64,000 nucleotides of DNA, taken from the IMG/VR virus record IMGVR_UViG_3300024270_000052. One strand, 5' to 3'. Of the stretch, positions 29,951-34,143 are shown piece by piece (within the stretch, counting starts at the first letter, position 1; each line of letters opens with the position of its first letter). The position numbers were made by a program, and so were the translations under genes. The notes beneath the pieces are model-generated. The model saw only the letters and a program-made list of their open reading frames with translations. It ran no database searches and was not told the DNA's origin. Source of the DNA: a virus (lineage: Duplodnaviria > Heunggongvirae > Uroviricota > Caudoviricetes).

Positions 29951-30412
29951 CTACAAATTAGCTTCAGGACAACTTTGTAGAAATTCTCTTAACTCCATTA
30001 GACATTTTCCAAGCATATTGTGTCCAATATTATTACATACACCCCAATACGTATCATTCCAAGTATTACCTTCAATTAATTCACTATCTCCAGTAGCAAT
30101 AAGTTTATCTCGTAATTCTAATGAAGTTGTAAATTTAAGATAAAGACCCAGTTTCATTACCATTACACGAGCAGTATCCCAGTCAGCGCGTAATTTTACA
30201 CCTCGGCCTAAATATTTAGCTCTACCTGGAGTAGCGGCTGCGGCGATTCTTTTTCGTTCTTCTATATCAGATGTTTTCATTGCTTGAAAGAAATGTTCAT
30301 TAGTAGGATAAATAATTCCATCATATTCAAATGGTGAATTATAAAAATTACTTAAAAAAGCATATTCTCCATTAAAACAATCAATTCTATTTCCCATTTT
30401 TAAAAACTCCAT
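29951..30412 (-). CDS. NADAR-domain protein (YbiA-like)
   Basis: 'FYNSPFEYDGIIYPTNEHFFQAMK...AKYLGR...DW...YWG' is the canonical NADAR signature. Confidence 0.75.
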   Translation of the reverse strand: MEFLKMGNRIDCFNGEYAFLSNFYNSPFEYDGIIYPTNEHFFQAMKTSDIEERKRIAAAATPGRAKYLGRGVKLRADWDTARVMVMKLGLYLKFTTSLELRDKLIATGDSELIEGNTWNDTYWGVCNNIGHNMLGKCLMELREFLQSCPEANL

Positions 30413-31235
30413 TCATCTTGGACATAATGCCGACAAAAGGAATATTAATATTATCTTTATGTCTACTAATGCTATGAAGATGTTTAATTGCGGCAAGAGT
30501 ATTTACATCTTCTGGAATAATTCTATATCTAATATAATTATCCAACTCTTTATAAGTAAATCCAAAATTTTCTTCATCAGTTTTACCGCACATACCATCA
30601 TCGGGAGCTTTGCCTACAATATAATCCGGTAGACCAAGAGCATAGCCAATTTGACAAACTTCTGTAGCAGTATAATCTGCTAAAGGACTAAAATCACCTA
30701 CGCCATCGCCATACTTTGTAAAATATCCAATATAATCTTCAGATAAATTACAAGTATTTACTACTCTACCTCCATTTTCAAGGGCTGCCGCAATTGCATA
30801 AAGAGTAGTCATACGAATTCGTGCGGGTAAATTTGTTGTAACAACAGAATTATCCTTGAAATTAATTTTATAATCAATTGGTGTGGGACAATAATCACAA
30901 AATGTATTATCAAATGCGTTATAAATGGCTTTAGTTGTGTCGCCAATATTTACTGTAAAATAATTAATTCCAAGAATATTACAGACATCTTTAGCACAAT
31001 CTACATCACATTTTCGCATATTACCATCGGGAATAATAATACCATATACTCTATTTTTTCCAAGAGCGGCGGTACAAAGAGCAGCACAAACCGCAGAATC
31101 CTTACCGCCAGACATTCCAATTACTGCTGGAGAATTCGGTCCATTATCAGCAAAATATTCCTTAATCCAATCAATAATTTTATTTTTCTGAAGTTCAGCA
31201 TCAAACACATAATCTGTATTAAAAATAGTACTCAT
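30387..31235 (-). CDS. nadE: NH3-dependent NAD+ synthetase
   Basis: PP-loop 'GMSGGKDS' and 'GYFTKYGDGVGDFSPL', matching E. coli NadE motifs. Confidence 0.8.
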   Translation of the reverse strand: MSTIFNTDYVFDAELQKNKIIDWIKEYFADNGPNSPAVIGMSGGKDSAVCAALCTAALGKNRVYGIIIPDGNMRKCDVDCAKDVCNILGINYFTVNIGDTTKAIYNAFDNTFCDYCPTPIDYKINFKDNSVVTTNLPARIRMTTLYAIAAALENGGRVVNTCNLSEDYIGYFTKYGDGVGDFSPLADYTATEVCQIGYALGLPDYIVGKAPDDGMCGKTDEENFGFTYKELDNYIRYRIIPEDVNTLAAIKHLHSISRHKDNINIPFVGIMSKMNGVFKNGK

Positions 31236-31238
31236 AAT

Positions 31239-32462
31239 TTAAATACCTTCTTTCAATCTATAATTTACAGCGTTTTTCAAATATTCAGCATAATTTTCAT
31301 CCTGACACATAGTCTTGCCCGGAACGTCACTAAGCTTTGCTACTGGATGACCATTAACATACTGAAGTTTAATAACAATATTTAAAGGTTCAACATTAGT
31401 ATCATTACTAAGATAGGTACCAATACCAAAACTTACATTAACTCTATCTTTGAAATGATTATAAATTTTCTGTGCTCTATCAAAATTTAAACTGTCACTA
31501 AAGAGAAGTGTCTTAGTTTTTGGGTCAATACCAAGCTTTTCATAATGAGCAATAATCTTTTCACCCCATTCAATAGGGTCTCCACTATCATGGCGAACAC
31601 CAGTATAGCACATTGCCTGAAGCTTATTGAAATCCATAAGGAACAGGTCAGTTCCAAGTGTATCCGTAAGAGCAGTACCATTATCACCCTGATATTCATC
31701 AAACCACTCTTCCATTGCCATCTTATTAGTATATGCAAGAGTTACGCCCGGCACACCCTGATACATCTGGACATATTCATGCGCGTAGGTGCCAATAGGT
31801 TTACAACCATACTTCATAGCGAGAAATACATTGGATGTGCCAACACAGTGTCCGGTAGCAAGCAGTTCGCCAAGAACATAATCCTGCCATTCGCGGCTAA
31901 GACGTCTGCGGCAACCGAATTCTGCGAACTTGAAATCATAAATTTCCATGCGGAACTGATTAATCTTAAACATAAGTTTTTCTCTTGCGCTCTTTACAAG
32001 AGCAAGATAATCATACTTCATGCGGAAATATACTTCATTCACAATTTCAAGAAGATAGATTTCAAACTGCATAGCACTAAAGAGCGGACCATTTACCTCA
32101 ATATGAAGTTCGCCTTCTGTGTTATCAGTAATTTCCTTATCTTCATGTGTTTCAAGCCAGACCTTTACATACTGGCGAATAGGGTGCCAGAGCCGCAGGA
32201 ATTCAATGTAGTCCTTTTTGATAAATCTCAGAGATGCGAGATAATCAAGCTCTTCATCAGTAAAAGTCAGAGTACAAAGATGATTAATCTGTTCGCTGAT
32301 TTCATCTACCATTGCTTTAGTAAAACGCACATCTTTATTGCGACATTTAAAAATATATGTACCATTAAGATTGGTATGCTTATGGAACATTACCTGATTC
32401 ATATTAAATTTATAAAGGTCAGTATCAAGAAGCGATACAATAATAGGACTAAGTTTCATCAT
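31239..32462 (-). CDS. pncB: nicotinate phosphoribosyltransferase (short proteobacterial-type PncB)
   Basis: 407 aa. 'SLLDTDLYKFNM', 'FGCRRRLSREWQ', and 'GVRHDSGDPIEWGEKIIAHYEKLGIDP' nearly identical to E. coli PncB. Higher GC than the flanking genes. Confidence 0.75.
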   Translation of the reverse strand: MMKLSPIIVSLLDTDLYKFNMNQVMFHKHTNLNGTYIFKCRNKDVRFTKAMVDEISEQINHLCTLTFTDEELDYLASLRFIKKDYIEFLRLWHPIRQYVKVWLETHEDKEITDNTEGELHIEVNGPLFSAMQFEIYLLEIVNEVYFRMKYDYLALVKSAREKLMFKINQFRMEIYDFKFAEFGCRRRLSREWQDYVLGELLATGHCVGTSNVFLAMKYGCKPIGTYAHEYVQMYQGVPGVTLAYTNKMAMEEWFDEYQGDNGTALTDTLGTDLFLMDFNKLQAMCYTGVRHDSGDPIEWGEKIIAHYEKLGIDPKTKTLLFSDSLNFDRAQKIYNHFKDRVNVSFGIGTYLSNDTNVEPLNIVIKLQYVNGHPVAKLSDVPGKTMCQDENYAEYLKNAVNYRLKEGI

Positions 32463-32464
32463 AA

Positions 32465-32830
32465 TTAGTTATTTTCCTTTCTTTTATCTTTCTTTAAATT
32501 ATCAAACCCAATTTTAAGAATTTGTTCCAAACATTTTGCAAATAAACCTTCTTCAGCATAATCATTATCTTTATATCTTACACCAAGATATTTGTCTACT
32601 ACACAATGACGTTCATTATAATAAATATTAATATCATCATAATCAATCAATTCTTGCATAGTAAATAATACAAAATAATTAAATGCTAATTCATTTGCCA
32701 CTTTGATAATCATATTTTTATCATATGGTTTATATTTTGCCAAATATTCATTAATTTTATTTTTAACTAATTTATCGGCAATATGGTCTGGAAAAAGCTC
32801 TCCATCAGGACAATATTTAACAATAAGCAT
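32465..32830 (-). CDS. hypothetical protein (121 aa)
   Basis: Track ORF inside the NAD island. Confidence 0.4.
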   Translation of the reverse strand: MLIVKYCPDGELFPDHIADKLVKNKINEYLAKYKPYDKNMIIKVANELAFNYFVLFTMQELIDYDDINIYYNERHCVVDKYLGVRYKDNDYAEEGLFAKCLEQILKIGFDNLKKDKRKENN

Positions 32831-32841
32831 TTTAATCTCCT

Positions 32842-33024
32842 TTAGAGAAACACTAAACTTTCTTTACCATTTTTATCGTATTTATAATAACCACAGTCTT
32901 TTCTGCTCACTGGATGGATTTGAATATTTGCATCCTTCCCATAATCATTAACAACTCTTACAATAATAAGAGTATCATCAGGTAAATCTTTAATAAGTTC
33001 TTTAAGTTCTTTAACGGTTGTCAT
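32842..33024 (-). CDS. hypothetical protein (60 aa)
   Basis: Track ORF. Confidence 0.3.
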   Translation of the reverse strand: MTTVKELKELIKDLPDDTLIIVRVVNDYGKDANIQIHPVSRKDCGYYKYDKNGKESLVFL

Positions 33025-33046
33025 CGTTTTCTTTTACCATTTTCCT

Positions 33047-33310
33047 TTAAGCATTATAATATCCATAACTAATAACATGATTATCAAGTTTATCATAAGG
33101 CTCAAAATCACCAAGACATGCTATAACCATATTTGAAGAGCGAAGATAATAAGGAATATCACCATAATATTTATTTCCTTGTGTATCACTTTTTTCGCAA
33201 ACTTTTTGATAAATATATTCAAGTGCTTCTGGAATAGTATCTGCGGCAACTACAAAATCAGTATAACAATCGTAATCGTATTCTTTGATATTAATTACAT
33301 AAAGTTTCAT
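33047..33310 (-). CDS. hypothetical protein (87 aa)
   Basis: Track ORF. Confidence 0.35.
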   Translation of the reverse strand: MKLYVINIKEYDYDCYTDFVVAADTIPEALEYIYQKVCEKSDTQGNKYYGDIPYYLRSSNMVIACLGDFEPYDKLDNHVISYGYYNA

Positions 33311-33692
33311 TATTTTTTACCTTTATATTTATAAATTTATCACATTTAGTATCTATTAGCATTGCTGCGATAGCCATTCCCCACATAGCACCAGCTTCAA
33401 ATCCCGATTCTGTATTACAACTTTCTAATTTTTTTAAAAAATCTTCTGAGCCAATATACTTTAAAATAGCTTCTTGAGCATTTTTAACTGTAATACAATA
33501 TTCAATATCTACTGGTATTACTAAATCAAGCATATAAATACACGTTTGTTTACCAGTATTTAAATTAATCGCACAGACTTCATCTTTATCGGCCTCAAAA
33601 GTTTCATGAATTCTTTTATAGAGTGTATCATTTTTAATAAAATAATCGCCAATATCAATTCTATACACTTCTTTACTTTCCATCATATTCAC
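33291..33692 (-). CDS. hypothetical protein (133 aa)
   Basis: Track ORF. Confidence 0.35.
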   Translation of the reverse strand: MNMMESKEVYRIDIGDYFIKNDTLYKRIHETFEADKDEVCAINLNTGKQTCIYMLDLVIPVDIEYCITVKNAQEAILKYIGSEDFLKKLESCNTESGFEAGAMWGMAIAAMLIDTKCDKFINIKVKNNETLCN

Positions 33693-34143
33693 AAATTAAC
33701 ACATCTCCATCATAATCTTTAAAAATATCTTCAATCATTTTATATACAATATTCCAGTCTCCACCGCCACGAGCGCAAGACATAAGATAAGGAAAAGCAA
33801 TAGTTTTATTGGTATTTTTGTACATATCATTGATTTTAATTAAACACGCTTTAAGTGCGTCATAATTTGTATAACAATGTCCATCGTATCCATATTTATC
33901 TTGAGCAAACAAATTTAAAATAACTTGTTTTTCATTAATCTGCACTCTTTGTACGTTTTGAAGTAAAGATTTCCCATTTCGTTTAGATAGAATACATATT
34001 ACCTTATATGCTTCAAAAACATGAGGATATCTTTCTTTTACTTGCTTAGCAACACCACTACCCATAACGCCTTGACAATTAACTTGATGACAAATTACAT
34101 CTGCGCCGGATTCAAAGATATCACATTTAATATGTTTAATCAT
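33673..34143 (-). CDS. macro-domain protein (ADP-ribose binding/hydrolase)
   Basis: 'ADVICHQVNCQGVMGSGVAKQV' is a macro-domain signature. Confidence 0.7.
   Translation of the reverse strand: MIKHIKCDIFESGADVICHQVNCQGVMGSGVAKQVKERYPHVFEAYKVICILSKRNGKSLLQNVQRVQINEKQVILNLFAQDKYGYDGHCYTNYDALKACLIKINDMYKNTNKTIAFPYLMSCARGGGDWNIVYKMIEDIFKDYDGDVLICEYDGK

What the first reader, a model, noticed from the sequence alone, without database searches (positions are those of the whole stretch)
29951..34143. Macro-domain and NADAR-domain proteins embedded in the NAD island
Macro domains (DarG-like) reverse DarT2 ADP-ribosylation of thymidine. NADAR domains reverse DarT1 ADP-ribosylation of guanosine and process ADP-ribose. 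Finding both inside the NAD-salvage island points to a combined counter-measure: reverse ADP-ribosyl marks, or clear ADPR/cADPR signals made by Thoeris-type TIR enzymes, then rebuild NAD+ from the released nicotinamide. The intervening unknowns are good candidates for accessory anti-defence proteins: 32465..33692, the His-rich 34144..34662, and 35470..36136.
Basis: inference. Interest (0 to 1): 0.75.

Follow-up and report, generated by a model that had tools for sequence, protein, structure and literature searches.

The report
ADP-ribose hydrolases inside phage NAD+ island

Summary
A NADAR protein (29951-30412, -) and a Macro protein (33673-34143, -) sit among PncA, PncB, an NMNAT-like enzyme and NadE, a complete Preiss-Handler route.

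- **NADAR:** it is 50% identical to bas33_0070, the tested anti-DarTG1 enzyme AdfN(Bas32), and keeps the catalytic Glu and Lys.
- **Macro:** it has the DarG/TARG1/Poa1p fold, but Gln81 replaces the catalytic Lys of DarG and AdfM. It clusters with the NARP1-associated "Adpp" Macros, one of which is a tested ADPR-1''-phosphate phosphatase.
- **What differs here:** the window has no Adps or Namat. In relatives this Macro sits either in PncA-Adps-Namat-(NADAR)-Macro-NadE islands or, as here, next to DUF5662 in PncB-type islands.
- **His-rich ORF:** it is DUF5662, a recurrent member of PncB-type islands. It is fused to NadD in one protein and looks weakly HD-like.
- **Other unknowns:** "32465..33692" is four small ORFs; the largest has only 4 relatives, and none recurs outside close relatives except u87 (two loci).

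Verdict: a new combination of known counter-defence modules.

In passing, the phage appears to read TAG as a sense codon in late genes.

The parts
36138..36671 (-). PncA-like nicotinamidase (isochorismatase family), 177 aa
   Evidence: Pfam Isochorismatase, E 4.5e-27. A homologue is present in 25 of 29 Macro-seeded loci and 18 of 19 PncB-seeded loci.
35792..36136 (-). Unknown 114-aa ORF with CxxC...CxxxC (zinc-ribbon-like)
   Evidence: No Pfam, PHROG or NCBIfam hit. Seen only in the window's own lineage.
35470..35829 (-). Unknown ORF (119 aa from TTG; 102 aa in the ENA gene calls)
   Evidence: No family hit. Seen only in the window's own lineage.
34925..35473 (-). NadM/NadR-type (N)MN adenylyltransferase-like protein, 182 aa
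   Evidence: CTP_transf_like, E 2.6e-6. NCBIfam NMNAT models, E 2.6e-12 to 1e-7, all below their cutoffs. The QPFHNGH and ISGTDVR motifs are visible in the sequence.
34758..34925 (-). Unknown 55-aa ORF, last gene of the upstream transcription unit
   Evidence: No family hit.
34698..34756 (-). Terminator-like hairpin (34756-34725) overlapping a promoter-like site (TTGATT-17-TATAAT with TG, 34726-34698). This is the predicted start of the DUF5662-to-DUF5067 unit.
   Evidence: The same terminator-plus-TTGATT-promoter module recurs at 37619-37566 and 29418-29355.
34144..34662 (-). DUF5662, 172 aa, His/Asp-rich; a possible metal-dependent (HD-like) phosphohydrolase
33673..34143 (-). Stand-alone Macro domain protein, 156 aa, of the Poa1p/Adpp-like clade. 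Its ATG directly follows the DUF5662 stop codon.
   Evidence: It is 34-38% identical to NARP1-associated Macros (E 1e-26 to 5e-28) and 30% identical to Gary Adpp (E 4.5e-15). H19, N22 and Q81 are the diagnostic residues.
33291..33692 (-). Unknown 133-aa ORF, lineage-restricted
   Evidence: Only 4 relatives in 5.8 billion proteins. Only weak, sub-threshold family hits.
33047..33310 (-). Unknown 87-aa ORF
   Evidence: No significant family hit. A 54%-identical homologue lies in L001 and L003 near an RNA ligase.
32842..33024 (-). Unknown 60-aa ORF
   Evidence: Weak DUF6225 hit, E 7.6e-4, below the cutoff.
32465..32830 (-). Unknown 121-aa ORF
   Evidence: No family hit.
31239..32462 (-). PncB, nicotinate phosphoribosyltransferase, 407 aa
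   Evidence: TIGR01514, 431.5 bits against a cutoff of 269.6; NF003704, 497 bits. Pfam NAPRTase plus NAPRTase_N.
30387..31235 (-). NadE, NH3-dependent NAD+ synthetase, 282 aa (ends in TAG)
   Evidence: Pfam NAD_synthase, E 3.1e-48. TIGR00552, 159 bits against a cutoff of 63.7.
29951..30412 (-). Stand-alone NADAR protein, 153 aa (148 aa from the second ATG at 30397). It overlaps the NadE 3' end and ends in TAG.
   Evidence: It is 50% identical to bas33_0070, which is AdfN(Bas32). E39 and K46 align with the catalytic Glu and Lys.
29418..29906 (-). DUF5067 lipoprotein-like protein, last gene of the unit
   Evidence: Pfam DUF5067, E 6e-21. It co-occurs downstream of NADAR in L052-L054 and L064.
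29382..29418 (-). Strong terminator-like hairpin (17-bp stem plus a T-run) closing the unit

Best explanation
**Layout.** The region from about 37.56 to 29.38 kb (minus strand) forms two predicted transcription units.
- Unit 1 holds Thg1-like, PncA, two unknown ORFs, NMNAT and a 55-aa ORF.
- Unit 2 holds DUF5662, Macro, four small ORFs, PncB, NadE, NADAR and DUF5067.
- Their genes contain no in-frame TAG, so they are probably expressed early.

**Core pathway (family level shown, chemistry inferred).** The phage encodes its own Preiss-Handler route.
1. Nicotinamide to nicotinate (PncA).
2. Nicotinate to NaMN (PncB, using PRPP).
3. NaMN to NaAD (NMNAT).
4. NaAD to NAD+ (NadE).

The last two steps could instead run in the Francisella order, NaMN to NMN to NAD+. 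This pathway keeps NAD+ available when host defences destroy it, and it also feeds the phage's own NAD-dependent DNA ligase.

**Two accessory hydrolases handle the ADP-ribose side of those attacks (substrates inferred).**
- The Macro is a Poa1p/Adpp-type enzyme. It most likely removes the 1''-phosphate from ADPR-1''-phosphate, the product of RES-type NAD+ phosphorolysis, giving ADP-ribose.
- The NADAR is an AdfN-type N-glycosidase. It most likely strips ADP-ribose from guanine in DNA (or RNA) modified by DarT1-like transferases.

**DUF5662** directly precedes the Macro and is a recurrent partner of PncB-type islands. It is probably a metal-dependent phosphohydrolase acting on a nucleotide or ADPR-derived intermediate. 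Its substrate is unknown.
For: **Families**
- establish the Pfam and NCBIfam assignments.

**Macro clade**
- Blastp gives better matches to NARP1-associated Macros than to DarG.

| Subject | E-value |
|---|---|
| Vibrio phage 1.063.O Macro | 5.5e-28 |
| Vibrio phage RYC Macro | 1.3e-26 |
| Gary Adpp | 4.5e-15 |
| Mtb DarG | 5e-14 |
| Taq DarG | 1e-12 |

- An NJ tree and diagnostic residues put it in the clade with H19 and Q81. That clade includes Gary Adpp, T4 Tk.4 and BT1257. It is separate from DarG and AdfM, which have N or I at 19 and K at 81.
- Gary Adpp converts ADPR-1P to ADPR and is needed to beat aRES.

**NADAR**
- It is 50% identical to AdfN(Bas32).
- Every NADAR tested in that study, YbiA included, hydrolyses G-ADPr in vitro.

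**Conserved linkage**
- PncA-Adps-Namat-(NADAR)-Macro-x-NadE occurs in L004-L029 and L065-L067.
- DUF5662-Macro-...-PncB-NadE-NADAR occurs in L064.
- NMNAT-NadE-DUF5662-Macro-PncB-x-PncA occurs in L063.
- The syntenic phage L068 has the island without Macro or NADAR, so the two behave as plug-in modules.

**Operon structure**
- Three terminator-plus-promoter modules sit exactly at the intergenic gaps.

**No in-frame TAG in the island**
- Late genes carry up to 11 in-frame TAGs, while the island genes carry none.

**NAD-dependent ligase in the same window**
-.
Against: - No enzyme was assayed.
- Adpp activity is shown for only one family member, which is 30% identical. Most members of this Macro family, such as T4 Tk.4, lie outside NAD islands. 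The family occurs in 1931 GenBank phage records.
- The window lacks Adps and Namat. The known use of the Adpp product, ADPR feeding NARP1, is therefore missing here.
- Poa1p S30 is not conserved (my reading of the alignment).
- The NADAR also scores above the cutoff for the YbiA-type riboflavin-intermediate N-glycosidase model. E. coli YbiA and T4 gp30.3 did not rescue DarT1 toxicity in cells in one study.
- PncB-seeded relatives had neither Macro nor NADAR within 10 kb (0 of 19), so neither is needed for the pathway.
- Promoter-like hits as a whole are not above chance: 104 found against 89.9 +/- 8.7 expected.
Confidence: 0.55

Rival explanations
1. One reading: the Macro is a DarG2/AdfM-like DNA glycohydrolase. 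It would remove ADP-ribose from thymidine modified by DarT2, pairing with the NADAR to cover both DarTG types.
For: - Best PDB sequence and fold matches are the DarG macrodomains: 5m3i E 1.4e-9 and 5m3e TM 0.80.
- The NCBIfam DarG model matches residues 2-152 at E 3.5e-19.
- Asn22, one of the two DarG active-site residues, is conserved.
- Stand-alone phage Macros of this function exist, for example AdfM of PhiKZ.
Against: - Catalytic Lys (Taq K80, AdfM K78) is replaced by an invariant Gln81.
- The NCBIfam score of 69 bits is far below the 250-bit cutoff, and the DarT-binding C-terminal domain is absent.
- It is closer in sequence to the Adpp-type Macros, and the tree separates it from DarG and AdfM.
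- The fold is shared equally with Poa1p, TARG1 and BT1257.
Confidence: 0.1
2. RNA-repair housekeeping: the Macro (and perhaps the NADAR) clears Appr>p or Appr-1''p made when a 2'-phosphotransferase finishes tRNA repair. The island lies within an RNA-repair neighbourhood.
For: - The flanks carry a Thg1-like enzyme (36684-37547), an RNA ligase (39521-40927), an AAA_33 polynucleotide-kinase-like protein (27343-27930) and two metallophosphoesterases.
- Poa1p itself works in tRNA splicing.
- In PAK_P4 the NARP1-Macro cluster also follows an RNA ligase and an AAA_33 kinase.
- Iyer et al. predicted this role.
Against: - No Tpt1/KptA and no 2H cyclic phosphodiesterase appear among the Pfam-annotated genes of window-identical contigs, which cover roughly window positions 3-44 kb.
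- Within the loci sampled here, which were seeded on the window's own Macro and PncB, the recurrent neighbours of this Macro are NAD-synthesis genes rather than ligases.
Confidence: 0.15
3. Metabolic boosting only: the island raises NAD+ for the phage's NAD-dependent ligase and other enzymes. Macro and NADAR are general clean-up enzymes (O-acetyl-ADPR, riboflavin-intermediate N-glycosidase) with no role against host defence.
For: - An NAD-dependent DNA ligase lies in the same window, and lies beside the island in L065 and L066.
- 'NAD-jumbo phages' were interpreted partly in this way.
- The NADAR passes the YbiA-type model.
- JGI annotates some Macro homologues as O-acetyl-ADPR deacetylase.
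Against: - No riboflavin or sirtuin genes were seen nearby.
- The closest tested relatives of both enzymes are counter-defence proteins.
- Macro and NADAR come and go between otherwise syntenic phages, for example L068 against the window. I read this as typical of arms-race genes; that is an inference.
Confidence: 0.15
4. Macro and/or NADAR degrade Thoeris-type cyclic ADPR signals (2'/3'cADPR).
For: [quoted passage not shown]
Against: - No Macro or NADAR has been reported to cleave these signals.
- The only known degrading enzyme family is RyDEP, and nothing like it was identified here.
Confidence: 0.05

Closest known systems
Adpp, the Poa1p-like Macro ADPR-1''-phosphate phosphatase of NARP1-AP (Vibrio phage Gary; Osterman et al. 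2026 preprint, 10.64898/2026.01.28.702374)
   Same: - Same Macro clade: 30% identity to Gary Adpp and 34-38% to other NARP1-associated Macros.
- It shares H19, N22, Q81 and the C-x-x-G-G-x-W loop.
- It is also embedded in a phage NAD+ rebuilding gene cluster.
- In the closest relatives the gene sits directly after Adps-Namat.
   Different: - The window has no Adps or Namat.
- The Macro sits in a PncB-based (Preiss-Handler) island next to DUF5662, so the ADPR it would release has no known phage-encoded consumer.
AdfN, phage orphan NADAR anti-DarTG1 enzymes, specifically AdfN(Bas32) = bas33_0070 (PMC11825919)
   Same: - 50% identity over 138 residues.
- Stand-alone protein of about 150 aa with the catalytic Glu and Lys conserved.
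   Different: - It lies in an NAD island and overlaps NadE, whereas in Bas33 it lies among nucleotide-metabolism genes.
- The host is probably a Firmicute rather than E. coli.
- Activity is untested.
DarG2 / AdfM macrodomains (Taq DarG 5M3E; PhiKZ gp104, PMC13309987)
   Same: Same ALC1/TARG1-like macro fold, TM about 0.8. Asn22 is conserved.
   Different: - Catalytic Lys is replaced by Gln81.
- His replaces Asn at position 19.
- The loop reads R-G-G-G rather than N-G-G-L.
- There is no DarT-binding domain.
Phage NAD+ reconstitution pathways NARP1, NARP2 and NARP3, and the Preiss-Handler gene clusters of 'NAD-jumbo phages' (10.1101/2024.02.11.579819 [title and abstract start only]; PMC13464706; PMC11662467)
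   Same: A clustered phage gene set that makes NAD+. A pncB-nadD-nadE cluster was already described in gut jumbo phages.
   Different: - This route starts from nicotinamide through PncA and PncB. It is not NARP1 (Adps+Namat), NARP2 (described in the NARP3 abstract as converting nicotinamide to NAD+ via NMN) or NARP3 (PnuC+NadR).
- It carries Macro, NADAR and DUF5662 as extra members. None of these terms occurs in the main text of the NAD-jumbo-phage paper ('macro' and 'NADAR' searched there, 0 occurrences; 'DUF5662' occurs in no paper of the library).
NadD-YqeK (HD-domain Ap4A hydrolase) association in Gram-positive bacteria (from my own knowledge; NCBIfam NF005519 appears as a 361-position nadD model)
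   Same: DUF5662 is all-helical with an H...HD...H...HH...D pattern. It lies near the NMNAT and is fused to NadD in P0376.
   Different: - There is no detectable sequence similarity to the HD Pfam families or to any PDB chain.

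Membership tests
DarG2/AdfM-type macrodomain (thymidine-ADPr DNA glycohydrolase) | ALC1/TARG1-like macrodomain fold | tested here: met
   The AF2 model (pLDDT 89.8) matches 5m3e, 5m3i and 5m31 at TM 0.77-0.80, E about 1e-10.
DarG2/AdfM-type macrodomain (thymidine-ADPr DNA glycohydrolase) | Active-site Asn plus catalytic Lys (Taq N22/K80; PhiKZ AdfM N23/K78) | tested here: not met
   Asn22 is present, but the Lys position is Gln81. Gln81 is invariant in 36 of 36 homologues, and three alignment methods agree on the position. 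The active-site residues come from PMC13309987.
DarG2/AdfM-type macrodomain (thymidine-ADPr DNA glycohydrolase) | For DarG proper: a C-terminal DarT-binding domain and an adjacent darT gene | tested here: not met
   The protein is 156 aa. The NCBIfam DarG model matches only profile positions 1-147 of 338, at 69 bits against a cutoff of 250. No ADP-ribosyltransferase family appears among the Pfam annotations of the surrounding genes.
Adpp / Poa1p-like ADPR-1''-phosphate phosphatase Macro | Sequence membership in the NARP1-associated Macro group | tested here: met
   Blastp E 5.5e-28 to 4.5e-15 against Table S1 sequences, including Gary Adpp. It falls in the same NJ clade. It matches PHROG 335 'phosphatase' at E 5e-42.
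Adpp / Poa1p-like ADPR-1''-phosphate phosphatase Macro | His equivalent to Poa1p H23 (mutated in PDB entry 6lfs) | tested here: met
   H19 aligns with the His of Poa1p 'LIHSCNC'. It is invariant in the family and present in all 8 Adpp-group sequences aligned, whereas DarG has Asn. Poa1p S30 is not conserved.
Adpp / Poa1p-like ADPR-1''-phosphate phosphatase Macro | Location in an Adps-Namat (NARP1) operon | tested here: not met
   There is no Adps or Namat homologue in the 64-kb window. The feature is met in relatives L004-L029 and L065-L067.
Adpp / Poa1p-like ADPR-1''-phosphate phosphatase Macro | Conversion of ADPR-1''P to ADPR | not testable with these tools
   This needs an enzyme assay. 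It has been shown only for Gary Adpp.
NADAR / AdfN (guanine-ADPr glycohydrolase, anti-DarTG1) | NADAR domain | tested here: met
   Pfam PF08719, 106.9 bits against a cutoff of 35.1. PDB hits are 2b3w and 8bau.
NADAR / AdfN (guanine-ADPr glycohydrolase, anti-DarTG1) | Catalytic Glu and Lys (T4 AdfN E36/K43 and the PnNADAR equivalents) | tested here: met
   E39 and K46 lie in 'NEHFFQAMK'. They align with E and K of PnNADAR 8bau and YbiA and with 'VEHAFQAMK' of bas33_0070. The spacing is the same as in T4, where residue roles are given. T4 gp30.3 itself was not aligned.
NADAR / AdfN (guanine-ADPr glycohydrolase, anti-DarTG1) | Close relationship to a functionally tested AdfN | tested here: met
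   50% identity, E 2e-41, to bas33_0070. The paper states that Bas32 and Bas33 encode identical NADARs, named AdfN(Bas32). The bas33 locus tags are confirmed.
NADAR / AdfN (guanine-ADPr glycohydrolase, anti-DarTG1) | Removal of ADP-ribose from DarT1-modified DNA, and rescue on DarTG1 hosts | not testable with these tools
   This needs biochemical and phage assays.
Preiss-Handler NAD+ pathway (PncA, PncB, NaMN adenylyltransferase, NadE) | All four enzyme families present and clustered | tested here: met
   PncB and NadE score above their curated cutoffs. The isochorismatase/PncA-like and NadM-type NMNAT-like proteins are assigned at family level only. All lie within 8.2 kb on one strand.
Preiss-Handler NAD+ pathway (PncA, PncB, NaMN adenylyltransferase, NadE) | The adenylyltransferase accepts NaMN (NadD-like specificity) | not testable with these tools
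   The protein is NadM/NadR-like, not NadD-like. Substrate preference cannot be read from the sequence.
HD-superfamily phosphohydrolase (for DUF5662) | HD fold with the H...HD...D metal-binding motif | tested here: inconclusive

The most novel reading that the evidence does not exclude
DUF5662 and the adjacent Adpp-type Macro may form a previously undescribed ADPR-recycling branch. It would replace Adps and Namat in PncB-type islands.

1. The Macro would convert ADPR-1''P to ADPR.
2. DUF5662, as a new metal-dependent hydrolase family, would split ADPR (or a related nucleotide) into AMP and ribose-5-phosphate.
3. That would feed PRPP to PncB.

The phage would then rebuild NAD+ from both halves of the destroyed cofactor by a route distinct from NARP1, NARP2 and NARP3.

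Observations consistent with this:
- DUF5662 was found in 0 of 29 Macro-seeded loci, 26 of which carry Adps and Namat. It was found in 13 of 19 PncB-type loci.
- DUF5662 and Macro are adjacent in three lineages: the window, L064 and L063.
- DUF5662 is fused to NadD in P0376.
Probability: 0.12. Interest if true: 0.75.

Novelty: new variant of a known kind. Interest (0 to 1): 0.5.

Why it matters
NAD+ depletion and nucleic-acid ADP-ribosylation are widespread bacterial anti-phage strategies. The known phage answers were each described separately: NARP1-3, Adpp, AdfN and AdfM.

This locus, and the family of related islands found here, shows these answers combined as interchangeable modules around two alternative NAD+ rebuilding cores:
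- Adps/Namat, or
- PncB/DUF5662.

It makes three things directly testable:
- whether a Preiss-Handler route works as a fourth reconstitution pathway;
- what an Adpp-type Macro does when NARP1 is absent;
- what DUF5662 does. It has about 3,400 family representatives and no literature.

It also corrects an easy annotation error. 'Best hit is DarG' does not mean DarG function once the catalytic Lys is lost.

Tried and rejected
- **Near-identity DNA search.** A search of 29.4-37.6 kb against 50,697 GenBank phages found no match, so no annotated reference genome exists.
- **Adps/Namat in the window.** tblastn with the PAK_P4 proteins gave only the expected weak Namat-PncB paralogy (E 1e-4) and no Adps. 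A hidden NARP1 is rejected.
- **Tpt1/KptA, 2H, Nudix or ART genes.** None appear in the Pfam-annotated gene tables of window-identical contigs.
- **tRNA genes.** None were found.
- **DUF5662.**
  - PDB profile search at E up to 10 gave nothing.
  - Pfam at E up to 10 gave only DUF5662.
  - Foldseek against PDB gave nothing significant.
  - The afdb50 library was unavailable.
  - No paper mentions DUF5662.
- **Small ORFs.** PHROG, Pfam and NCBIfam gave only sub-threshold hits. The 133-aa ORF has 4 relatives in 5.8 billion proteins, so structure prediction was not spent on it.
- **ICP1 AdfB as a Macro comparator.** Rejected, because AdfB acts by binding DarT and is not described there as an ADP-ribose hydrolase.
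- **'Window-type combination is unique'.** I first drew this from the IMG/VR loci. I withdrew it after exact-protein look-ups found L063 and L064.

Full report
**1. What is there**

All genes between about 24 and 51 kb lie on the minus strand of a low-GC (about 30%) sequence.

The window also encodes topoisomerase II subunits, an NAD-dependent DNA ligase, a DnaB-like helicase and tail-fibre proteins. It further carries SPbeta-type YorF and YorH proteins. It is therefore a large tailed phage, probably of a Firmicute; the host is an inference.

No near-identical DNA exists among 50,697 GenBank phage records. The same island does occur, with identical proteins, in at least 23 ENA and JGI metagenome contigs.

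The gene order of the island, 5' to 3' on the minus strand, is as follows.

| Gene | Coordinates |
|---|---|
| Thg1-like | 36684-37547 |
| PncA-like nicotinamidase | 36138-36671 |
| Unknown, 114 aa | 35792-36136 |
| Unknown, 119 aa | 35470-35829 |
| NadM-type NMNAT-like | 34925-35473 |
| Unknown, 55 aa | 34758-34925 |
| DUF5662 | 34144-34662 |
| Macro | 33673-34143 |
| Unknown, 133 aa | 33291-33692 |
| Unknown, 87 aa | 33047-33310 |
| Unknown, 60 aa | 32842-33024 |
| Unknown, 121 aa | 32465-32830 |
| PncB | 31239-32462 |
| NadE | 30387-31235 |
| NADAR | 29951-30412 |
| DUF5067 lipoprotein-like | 29418-29906 |

These assignments rest.

Its single 'unknown' at 32465..33692 is really four small ORFs, and 35470..36136 is two.

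**2. Transcription units**

Three hairpin-plus-T-run terminators lie at 37619-37597, 34756-34725 and 29418-29382.

Each overlaps a promoter-like TTGATT-N17-TATAAT site with an extended -10 TG. These modules fall exactly in the three intergenic gaps.

This predicts two units:
- Thg1-like through the 55-aa ORF;
- DUF5662 through DUF5067.

Macro, NADAR, DUF5662, PncB and NadE would thus be co-transcribed.

The Macro ATG directly follows the DUF5662 stop codon. NADAR overlaps the end of NadE.

Promoter-like hits overall are not above chance. The units are a prediction, not a demonstration.

**3. The Macro is not DarG-like in its chemistry**

By sequence and by fold, its best solved relatives are the DarG macrodomains (5m3i E 1.4e-9; TM about 0.80).

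The same fold search returns other relatives at similar scores:
- TARG1;
- the Bacteroides protein BT1257;
- yeast Poa1p;
- SCO6735.

The fold therefore places it only in the ALC1/TARG1-like class.

Three independent alignments put Gln81 where T. aquaticus DarG has the catalytic Lys80. Gln81 is invariant in 36 of 36 close homologues.

The experimentally verified phage anti-DarTG2 Macro, PhiKZ AdfM, keeps both Asn23 and Lys78 (PMC13309987).

I then compared the protein with the NARP1-associated Macros listed in Table S1 of Osterman et al. 2026. Blastp results are below.

| Subject | Identity | E-value |
|---|---|---|
| Vibrio phage 1.063.O Macro | 38% | 5.5e-28 |
| Vibrio phage RYC Macro | 34% | 1.3e-26 |
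| Adpp of Vibrio phage Gary (tested enzyme) | 30% | 4.5e-15 |
| Mtb DarG | 29% | 5e-14 |
| Taq DarG | 23% | 1e-12 |

A tree and diagnostic residues separate two clades:
- **DarG and AdfM:** Asn or Ile at position 19, Lys at 81, and an N-G-G-L loop.
- **The window Macro and its allies:** His19, Gln81 and a G-G-containing loop. This clade holds the window Macro, all IMG/VR relatives, Gary Adpp, T4 Tk.4 and BT1257.

His19 aligns with Poa1p His23, a residue targeted in PDB entry 6lfs.

Gary Adpp dephosphorylates ADPR-1''-phosphate, the product of the RES-type defence aRES. That lets NARP1 rebuild NAD+.

The best-supported activity for the window Macro is therefore ADPR-1''P phosphatase. This is inferred from family membership, not shown.

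**4. The NADAR is AdfN-like**

It is 50% identical (E 2e-41) to bas33_0070 of Escherichia phage HildyBeyeler, which is Bas33.

Johannesman et al. state that Bas32 and Bas33 encode identical NADARs, named AdfN(Bas32). That protein has three reported properties:
- it neutralises DarT1 in E. coli;
- it restores plaquing of three phages on DarTG1 hosts;
- it does not affect DarTG2.

Glu39 and Lys46 align with the catalytic pair.

All four NADAR types tested by Cihlova et al., YbiA included, hydrolyse guanosine-ADPr in vitro.

NADARs also reverse guanosine ADP-ribosylation of RNA and cytidine ADP-ribosylation. The target could therefore be broader than DarT1 products.

One caveat remains. The protein also passes the YbiA-type 'riboflavin intermediates N-glycosidase' model.

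**5. Comparative context**

*Macro-seeded loci.* A scan seeded with the Macro returned 29 IMG/VR loci.
- 26 have a PRPS-like Adps and a NadV-like Namat immediately upstream of the Macro.
- 25 have PncA and 24 have NadE.
- 14 have the NADAR.
- None has PncB or DUF5662.

*PncB-seeded loci.* A scan seeded with PncB returned 19 loci.
- 18 have PncA and 11 have NadE.
- 13 have DUF5662.
- None has Macro, NADAR or Namat.

*Exact-protein look-ups with precomputed Pfam tables* refined this picture.

| Locus | Gene order |
|---|---|
| L065, L067 | PncA-Adps-Namat-NADAR-Macro-x-NadE |
| L066 | The same, without NADAR |
| L064 | DUF5662-Macro-three small ORFs-PncB-NadE-NADAR (window-like) |
| L063 | NMNAT-NadE-DUF5662-Macro-PncB-x-PncA |
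| L056 | NMNAT-NadE-DUF5662-...-PncB-PncA, no Macro or NADAR |
| L068 | Backbone syntenic with the window, no Macro, NADAR or Thg1 |

From this I draw three conclusions.
- **(a)** Macro and NADAR are recurrent but dispensable plug-ins of NAD+ islands.
- **(b)** They occur with both kinds of core, Adps/Namat and PncB/DUF5662.
- **(c)** DUF5662 and Adps/Namat were almost never found in the same locus: none of the 26 Namat-carrying loci has DUF5662, and only one DUF5662 locus (L046) has an Adps-like gene.

Many loci are close relatives. I estimate about 12 lineages among the Macro-seeded set from the identity groups, so counts overstate independence.

In GenBank phages the frequencies are:
- the Macro family in 1931 records;
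- the NADAR in 588 records;
- PncB in only 21 records;
- DUF5662 in only 9 records.

**6. DUF5662 (the 'His-rich' ORF)**

The family is large, with 3,366 cluster representatives at E of 1e-3 or better. It is strongly conserved, with invariant H10, H17, H37-D38, H61, H77, H83, H84, D113 and H138.

The AF2 model is all-helical, with pLDDT 74.7 and a poor stretch at residues 45-79.

Structure and sequence searches gave the following:
- Foldseek, PDB sequence searches and Pfam give nothing further.

Domain fusions link it to several partners:
- a bona fide NadD (P0376; NF000840, 181.6 bits against a cutoff of 150);
- HAD phosphatases (three proteins);
- TudS-like domains (three proteins).

I read it as a probable metal-dependent phosphohydrolase tied to the NaMN/NaAD part of the pathway. 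This would be reminiscent of the NadD-YqeK pairing, which I cite from my own knowledge. Its substrate is unknown.

**7. The small unknowns**

None has a significant family hit.

None has a homologue in the related loci outside the window's own lineage, except the 87-aa ORF, which recurs in two loci.

The 133-aa ORF has only 4 relatives in 5.8 billion proteins.

Nothing can be said about their function.

**8. Mechanism proposed**

*Shown at family level:*
- a complete Preiss-Handler gene set;
- an Adpp-clade Macro;
- an AdfN-like NADAR.

*Inferred:*
- The island restores NAD+ from the nicotinamide released by NADase defences. It also serves the phage's NAD-dependent ligase.
- The Macro removes the 1''-phosphate from ADPR-1''P made by RES-type enzymes.
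- The NADAR removes ADP-ribose from guanine in DNA or RNA.

Because Adps and Namat are absent, the ADPR released would not be re-ligated by known phage enzymes. It may be degraded to AMP and ribose-5-phosphate for PRPP. Whether DUF5662 does this is speculation.

**9. Comparison with the literature**

- Preiss-Handler clusters in gut 'NAD-jumbo phages' were described in silico. That paper's main text does not contain the terms 'macro' or 'NADAR' (PMC11662467).
- Iyer et al. 2022 predicted that phage Macro, NADAR and Nudix proteins co-occur and act on ADPr derivatives.
- NARP1, NARP2 and NARP3 are different routes.
- Adpp, AdfN and AdfM are each experimentally defined.

The window is therefore a new combination of known kinds, not a new kind.

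**10. Noticed in passing**

The phage appears to read TAG as a sense codon in late genes. Examples:
- an endolysin-like gene with 11 in-frame TAGs;
- tail-fibre genes with 1 to 4 in-frame TAGs;
- the flotillin-like and PIN-PhoH genes with one each.

ENA gene calls read through these codons.

The NAD island has no internal TAG. This fits early expression under the host's code, as proposed for recoded phages (10.1101/2021.08.26.457843; PMC9523058).

Noticed in passing
window 21432-23117(-), 53819-56353(+), 56430-58133(+), 58162-60471(+), 47010-48662(-), 11766-12758(-), 25286-26749(-) TAG at 26281, 23108-24388(-) TAG at 23887: There are many in-frame TAG codons in conserved genes.
- The endolysin-like Amidase_2 gene has 11.
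- The tail-fibre-region ORFs have 1 to 4.
- The flotillin-like and PIN-PhoH genes have one each.

Reading TAG as sense restores full-length homologues, and ENA gene calls do read through. ORFs of 300 aa or more on the minus strand rise from 16 to 21 with TAG as sense, and stay at 16 with TGA as sense. This points to amber stop-codon recoding (code-15-like), a known trait of gut phages. No suppressor tRNA lies in the window. The NAD island has no internal TAG; only NadE and NADAR end in TAG.
   Followed up: partly
L004-L029 and L065-L067 (e.g. L065 4787-9705): Related phages carry PncA-Adps-Namat-(NADAR)-Macro-x-NadE. They usually have no NMNAT nearby (found in 4 of 29 loci). NARP1 as published needs neither PncA nor NadE. 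This raises the possibility of a NARP1 variant that ligates nicotinate to ADPR-PP to give NaAD, which NadE would then amidate.
   Followed up: no
window 26790-27371, 27343-27930, 28370-29053, 36684-37547, 39521-40927 (all -): An RNA-repair-type gene set flanks the NAD island on both sides. It comprises two metallophosphoesterases, an AAA_33 polynucleotide-kinase-like protein, a Thg1-like tRNA-His guanylyltransferase-family protein and a 468-aa RNA ligase. Pseudomonas phage PAK_P4 also has an RNA ligase and an AAA_33 kinase directly upstream of its Adps-Namat-Macro cluster (L051).
   Followed up: partly
window 25286-26749(-), 38044-39027(-), 48761-51172(-): There are three SPFH/Band_7-related genes in one phage region. 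They are a flotillin-like protein (Band_7 plus Flot), a second Band_7 protein, and an 803-aa protein whose only Pfam hit is the major-vault-protein shoulder domain. This membrane-scaffold gene content is unusual for a phage.
   Followed up: no
L063 13095-13613 and 14172-14939; L065 3618-4646; L067 1-43: L063 has a second DUF5662 paralogue about 5 kb from its NAD island, close to an RlaP-family nucleotidyltransferase. RlaP genes also lie just upstream of the NAD island in L065 and L067.
   Followed up: no
window 29951-30412(-): The NADAR also gives a sub-threshold match to NCBIfam NF053876, 'DS32_2 NADAR family anti-phage protein' (E 4.5e-16, 58.5 bits against a cutoff of 240). NADAR domains are thus used on both sides of the conflict.
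   Followed up: no
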